DNA from: Bacteroidales bacterium
GTDB taxonomy: Bacteria; Bacteroidota; Bacteroidia; Bacteroidales; UBA7960
Length of the DNA stretch: 64,000 nucleotides
Assembly: GCA_012521995.1 (NCBI GenBank)
Contig: JAAYLH010000078.1
Location: forward strand, 5,535-69,534
Direction: 5' to 3'
Below are positions 2,600-63,808 of the stretch, piece by piece. The notes beneath the pieces were generated by a model that was not told the origin of the DNA, did no database searches, and saw only the letters and a list, made by a program, of their open reading frames with translations. Both the position numbers and the translations under genes were made by a program. Position 1 is the stretch's first letter. Each line of letters opens with the position of its first letter.

Positions 2600-2698
2600 A
2601 GACGTACTTAAGACGTACTTAAGACGTACCTAAGACGTACCTAATACGTATAAAATACGTTTAAAGTACGTGTGAGATACGTTTGATCTACGTCTGAT
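2600..2698. repeat. Tandem array of nine 11-bp units with invariant ACGT core
   Basis: AGACGTACTTA x2, AGACGTACCTA x2, ATACGTATAAA, ATACGTTTAAA, GTACGTGTGAG, ATACGTTTGAT, CTACGTCTGAT. CpG at 2603, 2614, 2625, 2636, 2647, 2658, 2669, 2680 and 2691, exactly 11 bp apart. Confidence 0.95.
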
Positions 2699-19142: not shown

Positions 19143-19213
19143 CAAAACGGCGTGATTTTTTCTCCCTTCACGCCTGACAATTTGCGGGTTTTTTTGTTGT
19201 ATTGATATTAGGC

Positions 19214-21490
19214 ATGCATTTTGAACGGCATGACCTGATATCGTTTCCCATGTATAAAAATTTTAAGCGAATGCTTCATCAGAAGGTTATCAGCGAATAT
19301 CAGAACATTGTATCCATGCTACACAGCCGCCGGGTATATGATGCCATCGGGCGGCTGAGGCTGCTTGTCAGGGAGTCTCAGAAGGAATTCATCAACGAGC
19401 GGATCGACAGCCTGCTTGAGACTTACCGCAACCTCCTGAAGCATTCCTTTGCCGCTGCCCACGATCCTGAACGCGAAAAGGTTTATAATTACCTGATACG
19501 CAGCCTGCTTGAGCTGTCGGATGAGCTCAAGGAACTTTTGCTTACCGAGGCAGGCTCCACCAATACCCACCAGATGAAGTCGCGGCTGCAGCGCGAGCAT
19601 CGCCTCGAGCGGCAGGAAGCCCTGGCTTACCTCGAACGGGTGACCTATGATGACCAATTGGCAGGGCTGCTTAAAGACGTAAAAATAGAAGAGAGCAACA
19701 AACTGCCCGGCCGCGAGGAAGCCCTCATCCGCATCTTTGACATCATCTGGCTGACCGACAAATATACCGAAGCCGAAATGGAACTGCTCAATGCCAGCTG
19801 CGACTCCGCCCGCCTGCCCTGGCACGACAAGGCCCTCATTGTTAGCGCCCTCACCCTGAGCCTCTTGCGTTACTTCGATGTCAGCAAATTTCTCCTCCTG
19901 TTTCGCTTCGCCGAAAAAAGAGAAGAACGGGTGTGGGAACGGGCCATGGTTGGCTTGTTTTTGGCTTCCCTGAAATACAACGACCGCTATTACCTCTATC
20001 CTGTGTTAGAAGAGAAAACCCTGGCGTTCCGCGAGTTTCCCTCCATAGAGCAAAACATCGAAGCCCTGGTAATACAGTTCACCAAGTCGAAGGAAACAGA
20101 AAAGGTGCGCCGTAAATGGGAAGAAGAGATCCTGCCCGCCATGATGAAGATGCGGCCCCGCATTGAAGAAAAACTTGAACTCGACCAGATCTTCTCAGAG
20201 GATTACGGCGAGGAAAAGAACCCCGACTGGGAAACCGTCTTTGAAGACTCCCCCGGCCTGCTCGACAAGCTGCAGGAGTTCACCGAGATGCAGCTCGAAG
20301 GCATGGATGTTTTTATGAGCGCCTTCTCACAACTCAAGGGCTTTCCCTTCTTCCGCGAAATCAGCAACTGGTTTGTGCCCTTTTATCTGGAGAATGAAGC
20401 CATTGCACAGGCGCTGGGCAGCGGTGGCGGGCAAACCGACCTTAGCCCCCTGGCGGGCAAACTCGAGAACAGCTATTTTATGTGCAACAGCGATAAGTAT
20501 TCATTCTGCCTCAACCTGGGGATGGCCCCCGAACAGCAGAAGGCCATGATGATGAATATGCTGAACAATGAGATGAGCAACTTGGCTGAGGTAGAACAGG
20601 ACGAGAACCTGCTGAACAGCTTTGCCGCCACCAAAAGCATTTACACCCAGTATTTCCAGGACCTGTACCGCTTTTTCAGGATCCATCCCTGGCGGCAGGA
20701 GTTTGACGACGTCTTTGAGCTGGATGTAGACCTTTACGAGACCGCCTTCGTCAAGCACCTGGTGTCGGATCATAAGACCATCCGCAACATTGCTGAGCTT
20801 TTCTTTGACAAGAAATTTTATCCTGAGGCCCTTGAAGTCTTTCTCGATATCCTCGAAAATCAAAAGGACAACATTGAATTGTTCGAGAAAATTGCTTTCT
20901 GTTATGAAAAAACGGGGCAGTTCAACAAAGCCTATGATTATTACCTGAAGGCCGACCTGATCGACTCTGACCGCCCCTGGATCATGCGTAAGCTGGCCCT
21001 CACCAGCAAATACCTCAACCGCTGGGAAGAGGCTCTGCGTTATTACCGCATGGTGGAAAAGGCCGAGCCCGAAGACCTGAAGGTGCAGGCCAACATCGGC
21101 CAGTGCCTGGTGCACCTCGAGCGTTATGAAGAAGCCCTCGACTATTACTTCAAGATAGAGGTGCTGGCTCCCGAGAATCACCGTATCCGTCGCCCCCTGG
21201 CCTGGTGCTCGTTTCTGACCGGCAAGCTCGACACCGCCCGCGATTACCTCGAACGCCTCCTGGCTGCCGACCCCGAGAACCCCTATGACCTCGAAAACCT
21301 GGGCCACGTATTGTGGTGCCAGGGCAAACCTTCCGAAGCCCTGAAGTCGTATCAACAGAGCCTGGCACGCATGAAAAATTTCGAATCTTTCACGAAAGCC
21401 TTCAACGAAGATCGCAAGCACCTTGAAACTTTTGGCATCAGCCCCTTCGAAATGGACCTGATGCTCGATGCCGTGAAGCTGGGCGAATAA
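19214..21490 (+). CDS. TPR-repeat protein
   Basis: The C-terminal third holds clear TPR units (EALEVFLDIL..., FNKAYDYYLKA, WEEALRYYRMV, YEEALDYYFKI, PSEALKSYQQSL). The start is uncertain: ATG 19214, or 19250 (MYKNF). Confidence 0.8.
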   Translation: MHFERHDLISFPMYKNFKRMLHQKVISEYQNIVSMLHSRRVYDAIGRLRLLVRESQKEFINERIDSLLETYRNLLKHSFAAAHDPEREKVYNYLIRSLLELSDELKELLLTEAGSTNTHQMKSRLQREHRLERQEALAYLERVTYDDQLAGLLKDVKIEESNKLPGREEALIRIFDIIWLTDKYTEAEMELLNASCDSARLPWHDKALIVSALTLSLLRYFDVSKFLLLFRFAEKREERVWERAMVGLFLASLKYNDRYYLYPVLEEKTLAFREFPSIEQNIEALVIQFTKSKETEKVRRKWEEEILPAMMKMRPRIEEKLELDQIFSEDYGEEKNPDWETVFEDSPGLLDKLQEFTEMQLEGMDVFMSAFSQLKGFPFFREISNWFVPFYLENEAIAQALGSGGGQTDLSPLAGKLENSYFMCNSDKYSFCLNLGMAPEQQKAMMMNMLNNEMSNLAEVEQDENLLNSFAATKSIYTQYFQDLYRFFRIHPWRQEFDDVFELDVDLYETAFVKHLVSDHKTIRNIAELFFDKKFYPEALEVFLDILENQKDNIELFEKIAFCYEKTGQFNKAYDYYLKADLIDSDRPWIMRKLALTSKYLNRWEEALRYYRMVEKAEPEDLKVQANIGQCLVHLERYEEALDYYFKIEVLAPENHRIRRPLAWCSFLTGKLDTARDYLERLLAADPENPYDLENLGHVLWCQGKPSEALKSYQQSLARMKNFESFTKAFNEDRKHLETFGISPFEMDLMLDAVKLGE

Positions 21491-21623
21491 GCTCCCCGGT
21501 CAATCCTCCTGTAATACCTTTACAGAAAAGAAACTCACTGGTCTCAGCAGATCATTGATTTTTATGTTCATTTCTATTTTATTAAGACCATAAGGGTTAT
21601 TCCTTCATAGTATTTACCTATTT

Positions 21624-21680
21624 AATACGGAGTTTATACGCTTTAAACCGTATAAACTCCGTATTAACTCCGTATTAACT
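21624..21680. repeat. 11-bp-phased TACGG/CCGTA unit array containing a perfect 17-bp inverted repeat
   Basis: AATACGGAGTTTATACG (21624-21640), 8-nt spacer, CGTATAAACTCCGTATT (21649-21665, exact reverse complement), then AACTCCGTATT repeated (21655-21665 and 21666-21676). CpG at 21628, 21639, 21649, 21660 and 21671. Confidence 0.95.
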
Positions 21681-22356
21681 TTGAAGCTTATATCGCTTTT
21701 TTTCCTGCCTGGTCAATGTATGCCCGGTTTCTTTTTTGGGTAAGATGGAATTTTTTTAAAAATTTTTTAAGATTTTTATTTCTGGTGAATTAATAAAATA
21801 TATATACGGAGGGCGTTTTGTCGTAGCTAAAAATAAATCTGGATGCTTAAGGCAAGGTCGGTTATTGATTTTTTCCGGTCCTCACGCAGCGTTTGGGCGA
21901 GATTTCGCGTCTAGAGTAATGTAAGCAAGATCGCAATTGTATTTGCTGACAAGAGTTCTTTGTTATCATGAATTGTAATTTGACCATTAGACCTGTTTCT
22001 TAGGAGCGGAAATTTCTCCTTTTTTATATTTTCCGTTTTTTCAGGTTTTGTATGTGTTTCAGGGATACACGGTTATGGCCGCACAAACTTTCCCCGGAGG
22101 TTACTTTGGGTAAAGAAGCTGCAAACAACATTAACCAAACCAACTAACCCGCGGCCATTTCCCTGGAACCTTTTTCTTTCGGCTTGTTTTCCTAAAGTTC
22201 ATATGTGCTTTTTCGCTAAGGCCAGGTTTTTCCCCTGGTCTGTTGCGGGATTGTACCAGGCGGATGCCGGTTTTGTGGCATCCGCCCGTGAGGGGTGACG
22301 GCTTGGGCCGCCATAGGAACGCTCTTTGAGGTTTTTGAAATGCTTTTTTTTCGGGA

Positions 22357-22407: not shown

Positions 22408-22959
22408 TTGGTGGACACCCTGAAAAAAATCATAAAAGGCTGCCTGAAGAACAACCAGGCCGATCAGTACCGCCTGTACACGCTTTTTTCGAAAAAGATG
22501 TATGGGGTGTGCCTCCGTTATGCGGGCAGCTATGATGAAGCCCAGGATATCCTGCAGGAAGGGTTTATCAAGGTTTTCGAAAAACTTGACACCTTCCGCG
22601 GGCAGGGTAGTTTTGAGGGCTGGATCAAGCGCATTATGATTCACACTGCAATTGAGAAATACCGCGAACGGATCTATCATTTGTCGGTGGATGACCTGGG
22701 ACATAAGGGGCATGCTTTTGAAGAAAACGCAGGGCCTGAAAAACTCAGGTTCGAAGAATTGCTTAACCTGATTCATTTGTTGCCCGACCAGTACCGCCTG
22801 GTATTTAACCTTTCGGTGCTTGAGGGGATGAGTCATAAGGAGATTGGCGAGGTGCTCGGGATCACTGAATCCACTTCGCGTTCCAATTTGTCGAGAGCAA
22901 GGATGCTGCTGCAGGAAATGATTGCCAGGCAGGATAAAGTAGTTGAAAGAGCCATTTGA
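22408..22959 (+). CDS. ECF-type RNA polymerase sigma-70 family factor
   Basis: Region 2 (DEAQDILQEGFIKVF...FEGWIKRIMIHTAI) and region 4 HTH (LEGMSHKEIGEVLGITESTSRSNLSRARMLLQE). Non-ATG start (TTG 22408 or GTG 22411). Confidence 0.9.
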   Translation: MVDTLKKIIKGCLKNNQADQYRLYTLFSKKMYGVCLRYAGSYDEAQDILQEGFIKVFEKLDTFRGQGSFEGWIKRIMIHTAIEKYRERIYHLSVDDLGHKGHAFEENAGPEKLRFEELLNLIHLLPDQYRLVFNLSVLEGMSHKEIGEVLGITESTSRSNLSRARMLLQEMIARQDKVVERAI

Positions 22960-38925: not shown

Positions 38926-39104
38926 ATTGTTTTTTTTACAAAATTAACATAAATGGCCATTTGTGCATGAAAACCATTTCCCTGGCCTTGAAAACGCAAA
39001 CAGCAGTTTTCTCTTTTCGGCCTGATCATTTCTTATCCCGCAAAGGCATAATTCTTAAAGTTCATAACAGGAGAAAATCAACTGATAAATTTAACCAAAT
39101 CTCA

Positions 39105-39203
39105 ACCGTATCATGACCGTAAAAATACGGTCATGATACGGTCATGATACGGTCGAGATACGGTTGAGATACGGTCGAAATACGGTCGAAATACGTTTTA
39201 CGT
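39105..39203. repeat. 11-bp-phased ACCGTA/TACGG unit array (2 inverted + 7 direct units) containing a perfect 17-bp inverted repeat
   Basis: ACCGTATCATGACCGTA (39105-39121), AAAA, TACGGTCATGATACGGT (39126-39142, exact reverse complement). Direct units follow: TACGGTCATGA x2, TACGGTCGAGA, TACGGTTGAGA, TACGGTCGAAA x2, TACGTTTTA. CpG at 39107, 39118, 39128, 39139, 39150, 39161, 39172, 39183, 39194 and 39201. Confidence 0.95.
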
Positions 39204-39248
39204 AATTATCGATTTTCATCCCGTTTCAGAAGAAAGCTTGCGGAGGGC

Positions 39249-63752: not shown

Positions 63753-63808
63753 CGTATCATAAACGGGTCATAAACTTTTTAGAACGGCTAAGACCCGTTT
63801 ATGATACG
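63753..63808. repeat. Perfect 17-bp inverted repeat built from 11-bp-phased CCGTA/ACGG units
   Basis: CGTATCATAAACGGGTC (63753-63769), 22-nt spacer, GACCCGTTTATGATACG (63792-63808, exact reverse complement). CpG at 63753, 63764, 63785, 63796 and 63807. The left arm shares AACCGTATCAT with the array at 39104. Confidence 0.95.

What the first reader, a model, noticed from the sequence alone, without database searches (positions are those of the whole stretch)
21624..21680. Second phased array: 17-bp perfect inverted repeat plus tandem AACTCCGTATT, CpG every 11 bp
AATACGGAGTTTATACG (21624-21640) and CGTATAAACTCCGTATT (21649-21665) are exact reverse complements separated by 8 nt. The right arm continues as a direct repeat of AACTCCGTATT (21655-21665 and 21666-21676, then AACT again). 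CpG steps fall at 21628, 21639, 21649, 21660 and 21671, giving spacings of 11, 10, 11 and 11. The single 10 falls exactly where unit orientation flips, and the array at 39105 shows the same thing. Each arm is two 11-bp units (ATACGG n5 ATACG). The hairpin starts 134 nt after the TPR gene stop; the arrays at 39203 and 63753 lie 128 and 129 nt from the preceding stop codons. One extra ATACGGAG unit sits at 21804-21811. This could be a protein-binding palindrome, a T-tract-less transcription terminator or RNA hairpin, or a miniature palindromic element.
Basis: seen in the sequence. Interest (0 to 1): 0.6.

Follow-up and report, generated by a model that had tools for sequence, protein, structure and literature searches.

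The report
Orphan docking array of DUF6266 family
The 57-base palindrome is one gene-less copy of a repeat built from 11-base units; about 90 to 120 such arrays are scattered through this Bacteroidales genome, and each repeat family has one copy sitting in front of its own version of an uncharacterised gene (DUF6266), which points to an undescribed protein-repeat partnership.

Summary
It is not a terminator and not a lone curiosity.

- **What it is.** It is one of 22 copies of "family A", units (A)GTTnATACGG arranged 2+3 head to head around TTTAAA. Family A belongs to a superfamily of at least 91 strictly intergenic, quasi-palindromic arrays with an exact 11-bp period (families A-F and more).
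- **The gene link.** All seven full-length DUF6266 (PF19781) genes of the genome have an 11-bp array 48-92 nt upstream of their ATG. Six array families are represented; the two family D genes are recent duplicates. The family A gene lies on another contig. The other copies, including this one, are orphans.
- **Co-occurrence.** Arrays and multi-copy DUF6266 occur together in relatives (6 of 6 against 2 of 19, p=1.6e-4). A congener without DUF6266 has no period-11 arrays in 400 kb. The same gene-plus-orphans layout recurs in another family of the order.
- **Position versus content.** The sister species keeps arrays in the same gaps (25 or 26 of 28), but unit numbers change and the occupying family often differs.
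- **Best reading.** A helically phased row of docking sites for the cognate DUF6266 paralogue. Binding itself is inferred, not shown.
- **Not supported.** A RAYT link, an RNA hairpin, a terminator, and a classical MITE.

The parts
21603..21686 (.). Full quasi-palindromic element (family A orphan array), 42-nt arms
   Evidence: the repeat finder I1, 81% complementary. The RNA/DNA fold includes the outer CTTCA/TGAAG pairs. 11-bp periodicity in family A is confined to about 110 bp around the core. 66 of 74 nt are identical to the gene-linked family A copy at G000 C93:19915-20010.
21620..21630 (+). Left outer unit ATTTAATACGG (consensus AGTTAATACGG)
   Evidence: Read; family consensus.
21631..21641 (+). 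Left inner unit AGTTTATACGC (consensus AGTTTATACGG; the final C breaks the palindrome)
21642..21647 (.). Symmetry centre TTTAAA, where unit orientation flips
   Evidence: invariant in 14 full copies. A vestigial GGTTTAAAC is all that remains at one orthologous site.
21648..21680 (-). Three right-arm units CCGTATAAACT, CCGTATTAACT, CCGTATTAACT (inverted orientation)
   Evidence: the repeat finder D1, spacing 11 and 11; TRF period 11 at C111:27182-27214.
21676..21685 (+). TAACTTTGAA at the right edge. It matches the TATATTTGAA that follows the gene-linked family A array and fits the Bacteroidetes -7 consensus TAnnTTTG. Function here is untested.
   Evidence: Alignment. Only 2 of 22 family A copies carry TAnnTTTG on this side, which is background level.
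21804..21811 (+). Lone ATACGGAG octamer; chance-level, probably not part of the element
   Evidence: Expectation is about 2 per 64 kb on both strands.
39094..39207 (+). Family B array of the same superfamily (2 inverted plus 6-7 direct ATACGGTCGAG units), also an orphan. Its gene-linked copy is at G000 C51:6810-6902.
2600..2697 (.). Another 11-bp array of the superfamily (AGACGTACCTA units, G-type), an orphan. The G-type gene-linked copy is at G000 C25:4495-4609.
   Evidence: TRF at C111:8134-8231.

Best explanation
The element is an orphan (gene-less) copy of a family A 'DUF6266-type phased array'. It is a DNA-level row of five 11-bp docking units, two facing three across a TTTAAA centre, so that equivalent contacts (GTT, A, CG) recur once per helical turn on one face of the duplex.

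The cognate protein is most likely the family A paralogue of DUF6266. This is a 212-aa protein encoded on G000 contig C93 (19244-19879, minus strand), outside the window. Its own gene is preceded, 52 nt before the ATG and abutting its promoter-like TAnnTTTG box, by a nearly identical 2+3 array.

The model has three parts:
- One monomer binds per unit. An 11-bp rise is about 37 Å, roughly the diameter of a 23-kDa protein. Binding is cooperative, and the two oppositely oriented rows meet at the centre.
- At the gene-linked copy this autoregulates the gene.
- The 21 orphan copies are extra chromosomal binding sites in long, mostly terminator-side gaps.

Arrays are kept alike by unit gain and loss, arm-to-arm correction and conversion between arrays, rather than by frequent transposition.

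**Shown:** family membership, the exact period, the array-gene linkage for every paralogue, phyletic co-occurrence, positional conservation with turnover of content.
**Inferred:** that DUF6266 itself binds the units, the stoichiometry, and any role of the orphan at this site (for example as a protein-DNA boundary between the TPR gene and the ECF sigma operon).
For: 1. **Family.** There are 22 family A copies of 88-100% identity with unrelated flanks. The superfamily has at least 91 copies. 53 of 54 strict clusters are intergenic, against 0 clusters in shuffled sequence.
2. **Period.** 73 of 172 strong tandem repeats in the genome have period 11, against 2 with period 10 and 5 with period 12.
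3. **Gene linkage.** All 7 full-length DUF6266 genes have an 11-bp array 48-92 nt upstream. Six array families are represented: A, B, C, D (twice), E and G-type. The chance estimate is about 5e-11. A 793-bp duplication (C31/C78) spans exactly the gene plus its array.
4. **Other genomes.** Exact 11-bp arrays with quite different unit sequences lie upstream of DUF6266 in G014 (3/3), G017 (2/2), G006 (2/4), G004 (1/1) and G027 (3/4), and in two unrelated metagenome contigs. The G001 orthologue, only 66% identical in protein, keeps a family A 2+3 array.
5. **Co-occurrence.** Within the taxonomic family, arrays occur in G000, G001, G004, G006, G014 and G017, and DUF6266 is multi-copy in exactly these. 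17 of 19 array-free genomes lack it (Fisher p=1.6e-4).
6. **Sequence-agnostic control.** There are 0 period-11/22/33 arrays in 400 kb of DUF6266-free congener G005 (9.4 expected, P=8e-5). In 380 kb of DUF6266-rich G027, 13 of 14 strong repeats have a period that is a multiple of 11.
7. **Orphans elsewhere.** In G027 one family has 1 gene-linked copy plus 6 orphans and another has 1 plus 7.
8. **Constraint.** The element is kept at the orthologous G001 site at about 91-94% identity, with a compensatory ATACGG..CCGTAT to ATTCGG..CCGAAT change in both arms, while the flanks are barely alignable.
Against: - No binding experiment exists.
- The AlphaFold model of the family A paralogue (pLDDT 78.8) shows a disordered basic N-terminus, a beta-hairpin, three helices and an FN3/Ig-like sandwich. 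None of these is a recognised bacterial DNA-binding fold. Foldseek finds only generic FN3 domains.
- The N-terminal half modelled alone is low confidence.
- Across the seven paralogues, protein similarity and unit similarity correlate only weakly (rho 0.21), although the closest pairs do match.
- Family F (11 orphans) has no identified paralogue in this draft assembly.
- High-scoring single-copy 'canonical' DUF6266 genes (G010, G025, G035, G038, G006:C22), and the single lower-scoring copy of G009, have no upstream array.
- Earlier AI notes from other genomes place DUF6266 next to lysis cassettes and suggest a particle protein. A different factor could therefore bind the arrays.
Confidence: 0.55

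Rival explanations
1. A selfish, REPIN-like repeat whose spread and persistence depend on DUF6266 acting as a maintenance or mobilisation protein, as RAYT does for REP sequences. On this view the orphan at 21624 has no host function. This overlaps with the best explanation, since DUF6266 would still recognise the units, but it differs on purpose and on mobility.
For: - One gene-linked copy plus many orphans per family, several families per genome, each with its own paralogue.
- Patchy phyletic distribution, and absence wherever DUF6266 is absent.
- Copy number differs between sister species: 22 in G000 against about 39 in G001.
- Copies are enriched in convergent gaps, 35-42% against 16% background.
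- The element is absent from the orthologous gap in four congeners.
- DUF6266 modules have no conserved neighbours.
Against: - No target-site duplication or sharp ends.
- All 8 tested G000 family A copies have an array at the orthologous G001 gap (7 of family A, 1 with F-type units), and 17-18 of 20 G001 copies lie in gaps that also hold an array in G000. There is therefore no clear recent transposition.
- DUF6266 has no recognisable nuclease or recombinase fold.
Confidence: 0.2
2. The arrays are bound by some other factor, or act as DNA or RNA signals such as packaging or regulatory sites. On this view DUF6266 is merely the regulated cargo, for example a small particle or coat-like protein with a basic N-terminal arm.
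For: - The DUF6266 fold is a beta-sandwich with a disordered basic arm, not a classical DNA-binding domain.
- Earlier unchecked notes from other genomes link DUF6266 to lysis cassettes, and in one case to a neighbouring BldC-like regulator.
Against: - Six array families in one genome would need six separate factors. The only gene family with matching multiplicity and linkage is DUF6266.
- No conserved small neighbour gene or lysis cassette lies beside the G000 paralogues.
- Orphans carry no gene remnants.
Confidence: 0.13
3. A transcribed RNA hairpin acting as a U-tract-less terminator or mRNA 3' stabiliser for the TPR gene.
For: - A very stable predicted hairpin: -34 kcal/mol, z = -8.9.
- It lies 134 nt downstream of a stop codon, and the family is enriched in convergent gaps.
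Against: - No T run within 10 nt of the stem, and the scan does not call it a terminator.
- Family orientation is unbiased relative to co-directional genes: A 6 against 3, D 7 against 5.
- Arm mismatches are not wobble-biased: A has 9 G:T, 15 A:C and 84 other.
- Copies also occur in divergent promoter gaps and directly upstream of DUF6266 promoters.
- Real terminators (a GC-rich stem flanked by A and T runs) flank an array at a convergent site.
- No Rfam family matches; only sub-threshold miRNA-hairpin noise.
Confidence: 0.05
4. A functionless minisatellite born by replication slippage and hairpin-templated repair, with no protein partner.
For: - Unit number changes between orthologues: 2+3 becomes 3+2, and 2+2 becomes 3+2.
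- Arm-to-arm compensatory changes occur.
- Hybrid arrays exist.
Against: - It does not explain the exclusive 11-bp period.
- It does not explain the strict linkage to DUF6266 genes.
- It does not explain the absence from DUF6266-free relatives.
- It does not explain conservation well above that of the flanks.
Confidence: 0.05

Closest known systems
REP/REPIN elements and their RAYT (TnpA-REP, Y1 transposase) genes in Proteobacteria
   Same: - Short palindromic extragenic repeats in tens to hundreds of copies.
- Several repeat families per genome, each tied to one cognate single-copy protein gene that is itself flanked by the repeat.
- Vertical persistence at orthologous sites and a patchy distribution.
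- Enrichment at operon ends.
   Different: - The units here are 11-bp iterons in phased head-to-head rows, not 20-40-bp GTAG/CGTC-tagged hairpins.
- The linked protein is DUF6266 (beta-sandwich plus basic arm), not an HUH/Y1 enzyme.
- The array lies only upstream of the gene.
- The genome's one RAYT (C20:154-492) is flanked by unrelated GTAG hairpins, and Y1_Tnp occurs in 34 of 41 relatives regardless of arrays.
parC centromere/operator of plasmid R1 bound by ParR (11-bp iterons), and related omega/ParG-type operator arrays
   Same: - Rows of about 5 contiguous 11-bp iterons around a promoter, just upstream of the gene proposed to encode the binding protein.
- Direct and inverted unit orientations.
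- Cooperative binding once per helical turn is the proposed mode.
   Different: - The system is chromosomal, with 5 to 25 orphan arrays per family dispersed over the genome.
- No partner ATPase or partition operon.
- DUF6266 is not predicted to be a ribbon-helix-helix protein.
- Binding is untested.
Constant-period, variable-sequence tandem repeats of bacteria (Subirana and Messeguer, PMC8161180)
   Same: Within one genome there are many repeat families with the same unit length but different sequences. They are intergenic and of unknown function, and that paper proposes nucleoid-protein binding or small RNAs.
   Different: That work describes 52-nt and 20-21-nt periods in Bacillus and has no linked gene. 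Here the period is 11 bp, the arrays are quasi-palindromic, and a candidate partner gene family is identified.
BrickBuilt / MITE239-type MITEs of Porphyromonas gingivalis (PMC4596501)
   Same: A dispersed intergenic element of Bacteroidales that contains a minisatellite.
   Different: BrickBuilt has 23-nt direct repeats between leader and tail segments, with terminal inverted repeats that match ISPg elements. The present arrays have no such TIRs, leader or tail, or related IS.

Membership tests
DUF6266-type phased 11-bp array, family A (defined here) | Exact 11-bp unit period with (A)GTTnATACGG units | tested here: met
DUF6266-type phased 11-bp array, family A (defined here) | Head-to-head 2+3 arrangement around TTTAAA | tested here: met
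   14 copies are 2+3, 3+2 or 3+3. The window copy is 2+3.
DUF6266-type phased 11-bp array, family A (defined here) | High identity to the copy that precedes the cognate DUF6266 gene in the same genome | tested here: met
   66 of 74 nt identical to C93:19915-20010; 98% to the family consensus over 59 nt.
DUF6266-type phased 11-bp array, family A (defined here) | Bound by the DUF6266 paralogue | not testable with these tools
   Inferred only, from linkage and co-occurrence.
REP/BIME with RAYT | 20-40-bp imperfect palindrome with a terminal GTAG or CGTC tag | tested here: not met
   Family A units carry GGAG, not GTAG. The element is an 84-bp iteron palindrome.
REP/BIME with RAYT | Cognate Y1 transposase gene flanked by the repeat and co-distributed with it | tested here: not met
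   The single RAYT is flanked by different hairpins. Y1_Tnp is present in 34 of 41 relatives irrespective of arrays and is only a weak fragment in array-rich G001.
MITE | Defined terminal inverted repeats and a target-site duplication | tested here: not met
   Conservation fades gradually into degenerate units, and no direct duplication lies at the edges.
MITE | Parent IS or transposase with matching ends | tested here: not met
   No multi-copy protein families in the assembly. A draft MAG may have collapsed IS copies.
MITE | Presence/absence polymorphism at orthologous sites | tested here: inconclusive
   The element is absent from four congeners at this site, with a gap 280-330 bp shorter. 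But 25 or 26 of 28 sites are shared with the sister species, and the one 'empty' site keeps a vestigial centre.
Intrinsic (Rho-independent) terminator | GC-rich stem immediately followed by a U tract | tested here: not met
   AT-rich stem. The nearest T7 run starts 10 nt after the extended stem, and the scan does not call it.
ParR/parC-type partition centromere | 11-bp iteron rows at the promoter of the gene for the binding protein | tested here: met
   True of the gene-linked copies. The window copy is an orphan.
ParR/parC-type partition centromere | Ribbon-helix-helix adaptor plus partner NTPase in an operon | tested here: not met
   The model shows no RHH fold, and the neighbours are variable with no conserved partner.
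Any Rfam RNA family | Score at or above the gathering threshold | tested here: not met

The most novel reading that the evidence does not exclude
Array-linked DUF6266 paralogues and their cognate 11-bp iteron arrays form a previously undescribed multi-channel protein-DNA system of Bacteroidota. Each paralogue recognises its own unit sequence at a fixed helical period and autoregulates from a gene-linked array. It also occupies tens of orphan arrays placed in conserved intergenic 'slots', whose family identity is overwritten over evolutionary time. Functionally this would be either a new kind of chromosome-marking or nucleoid-organising system, or a REPIN-RAYT-like genomic symbiosis run by a non-enzymatic, capsid-like protein.
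Probability: 0.45. Interest if true: 0.85.

Novelty: new variant of a known kind. Interest (0 to 1): 0.74.

Why it matters
Bacterial tandem repeats with a constant period but variable sequence have been described, but without a mechanism or a partner. Here an entire class (about 75% of the strong non-coding tandem repeats... in fact 77 of 172 strong repeats of this genome) is tied to one uncharacterised protein family that no paper in the searched library mentions.

This makes two unknowns testable at once:
- what DUF6266 does (at least 2,300 sequence clusters in metagenomes);
- why 11-bp phased arrays persist.

EMSA or DAP-seq with seven paralogues against six array families would be a natural specificity matrix. 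If confirmed, it is a compact natural set of orthogonal protein-operator pairs, and a new example of repeats that survive only with their cognate gene. For annotation, the arrays break assemblies and should not be called terminators or CRISPR-like features.

Tried and rejected
1. **RAYT link.** The only Y1_Tnp gene is flanked by different GTAG hairpins and its phyletic pattern does not match.
2. **RNA-guided transcription (dCas12f-sigmaE, PMC13472631).** Considered because an ECF sigma gene follows the gap. The downstream 450-aa protein is an OMP beta-barrel protein, not Cas12f.
3. **RNA hairpin signature.** G:U against A:C mismatch asymmetry is absent.
4. **Terminator scan.** Negative at the element.
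5. **Rfam.** Nothing at gathering or E-value thresholds.
6. **Hidden longer element.** The flanks show no 11-bp periodicity or shared sequence.
7. **Orphans as decayed gene modules.** No DUF6266 remnants by tblastn at E<1, and no retained promoter box above background.
8. **A conserved small DNA-binding gene beside DUF6266.** The small neighbouring ORFs are unrelated and look spurious.
9. **Parent IS.** No multi-copy proteins in the assembly.
10. **Regional clustering of one family.** All 7 copies of one G027 family lie on one contig, but the second family tested is spread over 6 contigs, and G000 families are interspersed.
11. **N-terminal domain model for a fold search.** Confidence too low (pLDDT 56), so it was not searched.
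13. **BrickBuilt MITE comparison.** Different architecture.
14. **Phylum-wide pattern scan.** 0 of 200 genomes. It tests only the GTTnAnnCG skeleton and so understates the class.

Full report
**1. Observation**

- The two 17-nt arms at 21624-21640 and 21649-21665 are perfect reverse complements.
- The right arm continues as CCGTATnAACT units at 21648, 21659 and 21670.
- CpG steps fall at 21628, 21639, 21649, 21660 and 21671.
- The element begins 134 nt after the stop of a 762-aa TPR protein gene (19202-21490). It lies in a 917-bp ORF-free gap ahead of an ECF sigma gene (22408-22959) and an OMP-barrel protein gene.

A perfect 17-nt inverted repeat is expected about 5e-5 times per window. The symmetry extends to 21603-21686. 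As single-stranded RNA it would fold at -34 kcal/mol (z = -8.9). The lone ATACGGAG at 21804 is chance-level.

**2. It is one copy of a dispersed family inside a superfamily**

The window is C111:5535-69534 of a 3.26-Mb, 140-contig draft genome. Earlier notes describe the organism as an uncultured Bacteroidales.

Scanning the genome for phased TACGG clusters and for long palindromes showed about 22 near-identical copies with unrelated flanks. Their consensus is ..ACCATnnTCnTAG TTAATACGGAG TTTATACGG TTTAAA CCGTATAAACT CCGTATTAACT CCGTATTAAC TATGnnCnTGGT... Most copies are 2+3 or 3+2.

Five more families are built the same way:

| Family | Typical units | Copies |
|---|---|---|
| B | ATACGGTCGAG | 6 |
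| C | GTTTAACCGTA around AATTA\|TAATT | 20 |
| D | GTTCAGACGTA | 27 |
| E | not listed | 5 |
| F | GTTTAGACGGT | 11 |

There are further types too, such as CTTAGACGTAC (G-type) and TACCATGCTCG.

- A strict unit pattern gives 54 clusters, against 0 in shuffled sequence, and 53 of the 54 are intergenic.
- Among 172 strong tandem repeats, 73 have period 11, against 2 with period 10 and 5 with period 12.
- The periodicity is confined to about 110 bp (family A) or about 170 bp (family D); the flanks are ordinary DNA.
- Arrays are enriched in convergent gaps (18 of 51, against a 16% background) but occur in all gap types.
- Asymmetric families show no orientation preference relative to co-directional neighbours.

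**3. RNA and terminator readings fail**

- There is no U tract next to the stem, and the scan does not call a terminator.
- This genome's true terminators are GC-rich stems between A and T runs. At one convergent site two such terminators flank an array.
- Arm mismatches are mostly transversions and are not wobble-biased: family A has 9 G:T, 15 A:C and 84 other.
- Rfam gives nothing.

**4. The link to DUF6266**

A self-comparison of the proteome found almost no multi-copy genes. It did find a pair of 211-213-aa paralogues (C31, C78) whose 793-bp duplicated segment ends exactly at a family D array. The protein is DUF6266 (PF19781). The genome has nine DUF6266 hits. Two are truncated at contig ends.

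All seven full-length genes have an 11-bp array 48-92 nt upstream of the ATG, followed by a TAnnTTTG-type box. Six array families are represented:

| Array family | Gene-linked contig |
|---|---|
| A | C93 |
| B | C51 |
| C | C122 |
| D | C78 and C31 |
| E | C127 |
| G-type | C25 |

With about 3.4% of gaps holding an array, 7 of 7 has a chance probability of about 5e-11.

- The window element matches the gene-linked family A copy at 66 of 74 positions, including the first bases of the promoter-like box.
- Orphans have no gene remnants and, as a class, no retained promoter box.
- The DUF6266 modules have no conserved neighbours.

**5. The association is general**

Upstream regions of DUF6266 genes in other genomes carry arrays of exact 11-bp period but with unrelated unit sequences:
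- GGGTTGAGCCG, GGGTTGAAGCG and ATTTCAACCGG in G014.
- CCAATGTTCAA and TGAACTTGGTG in G017; these have no CpG.
- TCTACCTTTTG (with inverted GGTAGACAAAT), ATAGACATGAG and GACAACAGGGG in G027, which belongs to another family of the order.

Two metagenome contigs encoding 52-53% identical proteins show palindromic arrays of yet other units, followed by the same CAGAATTTG..TAnnTTTG motif. The G001 orthologue of the family A paralogue is only 66% identical in protein, yet it keeps a family A 2+3 array.

In G027 the TCTAC family has 1 gene-linked copy plus 6 orphans, and the ATAGA family has 1 plus 7. High-scoring 'canonical' single-copy DUF6266 genes have no array, so the linkage belongs to a divergent, multi-copy clade.

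**6. Phyletic co-occurrence**

- The GTTnAnnCG three-unit pattern is absent from 200 phylum-wide genomes. Among 40 relatives it is present only in G001, G004, G006, G014 and G017.
- DUF6266 is multi-copy in exactly those genomes plus G000. It is single-copy in G009 and G010, and absent from the other 17 genomes of the family (Fisher p=1.6e-4).
- A sequence-agnostic control agrees. In 400 kb of DUF6266-free congener G005 there is no period-11/22/33 array (9.4 expected at G000 density, P=8e-5). In 380 kb of G027, 13 of 14 strong repeats have a period that is a multiple of 11.
- Y1_Tnp (RAYT) is present in 34 of 41 genomes and does not track the arrays.

**7. Evolution at orthologous sites**

At the window site, G001 (82-86% identical in the flanking genes) has the element. 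Four more distant congeners lack it and have a gap 280-330 bp shorter.

- **G000 copies in G001.** All seven further G000 family A copies tested have an array at the orthologous G001 site.
- **G001 copies in G000.** Of 20 further G001 family A copies, the G000 gap holds family A in 7, C in 6, D in 2, B in 1 and G-type in 1. One gap keeps only a vestigial GGTTTAAAC centre, and two are unresolved.
- **Changes within orthologous pairs.** Unit number shifts from 2+3 to 3+2. Both arms show the compensatory change ATACGG..CCGTAT to ATTCGG..CCGAAT. At the C20 site family A units are replaced by F-type units, with both flanks conserved up to the array edges.
- **Hybrid arrays exist.** C17:37002 has a family C-like centre, and C125:13260 is a mosaic.

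The positions are therefore old and stable, while the content turns over by slippage, arm correction and conversion. This is not the signature of an actively hopping MITE. No target-site duplications or sharp ends are seen.

**8. What DUF6266 looks like**

The AlphaFold2 model (13-sequence alignment, pLDDT 78.8, pTM 0.71) has these parts:
- a disordered basic N-terminus (residues 1-16 and 34-38);
- a beta-hairpin (19-32);
- three helices (43-93);
- a confident C-terminal beta-sandwich.

Foldseek matches the sandwich only to generic FN3/Ig domains in the PDB and in viral models. There are no hits in PDB sequences, PHROGs or NCBIfam, and no paper in the library mentions DUF6266. The family is large: 2,305 clusters at E<=1e-3.

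The fold neither proves nor excludes DNA binding. A basic arm plus hairpin is compatible with it. Earlier AI notes from other genomes independently report phased arrays upstream of DUF6266 and orphan copies. They also report DUF6266 beside lysis cassettes, with a particle-protein suggestion. These notes are leads, not evidence.

**9. Verdict**

The element at 21624-21680 is a real, non-random orphan member of family A of a lineage-restricted superfamily of 11-bp phased, quasi-palindromic arrays.

The best-supported mechanism (confidence about 0.55) is a DNA-level docking row for the cognate DUF6266 paralogue. The gene-linked copy would act as an autoregulatory operator, and the orphans would be additional chromosomal sites.

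A REPIN-RAYT-like selfish partnership is the main rival and overlaps with this reading. Terminator, RNA and plain-slippage explanations are unlikely.

Nothing comparable is in the literature searched. The closest known analogues are REP-RAYT pairs and ParR-parC iteron operators, and defining features of both were tested and not met.

Noticed in passing
window 22013-22190: A non-coding block upstream of the ECF sigma gene is conserved at 73-82% identity in at least 9 genomes of several genera, while the surrounding gap is not. There is no Rfam match. It may be an sRNA, a leader or a small ORF.
   Followed up: partly
G000 whole genome (e.g. orthologous gap in G009/G004: AATCATC repeats): Besides period 11, 31 strong tandem repeats have period 7. 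This is a second over-represented class of short intergenic arrays.
   Followed up: no
G027:C6:120255-515730: All seven TCTACC-type arrays of this genome lie on one 520-kb contig. The six orphans are 43-61 kb apart (about 50 kb); the gene-linked copy lies 134 kb before the first. A second family is not clustered in this way.
   Followed up: partly
G000 C20:61238-61297 vs G001 C36/C44: At an orthologous site with conserved flanks, all five units are A-type in one species and F-type in the other. The whole array has been rewritten in place.
   Followed up: partly
G000 C31:21723-22514 and C78:6000-6791: A 793-bp duplication at 86% identity comprises exactly one DUF6266 gene plus its upstream family D array. 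This suggests the gene-plus-array module duplicates as a unit.
   Followed up: partly
G000 C20:1-900: The single RAYT-type Y1 transposase gene is flanked by GTAG-tagged hairpins (AGTAGCCATGAGTCGCGTAGCACTCATGG) unrelated to the 11-bp arrays.
   Followed up: yes
G000 C93:19244-19879 vs G001 C151 (L047:1201-1839): The orthologous family A DUF6266 proteins are only 66% identical, although the flanking DNA is 70-88% identical and the arrays are the same. The protein evolves fast.
   Followed up: no
window 63753-63808: Another inverted repeat shares AACCGTATCAT with family B, but its internal units are different. It was not classified here.
   Followed up: no
G000 C13:1609-1995 and C111:1-189: Two truncated DUF6266 genes of the high-scoring 'canonical' type lie at contig ends. 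Their upstream regions are missing from the assembly.
   Followed up: no
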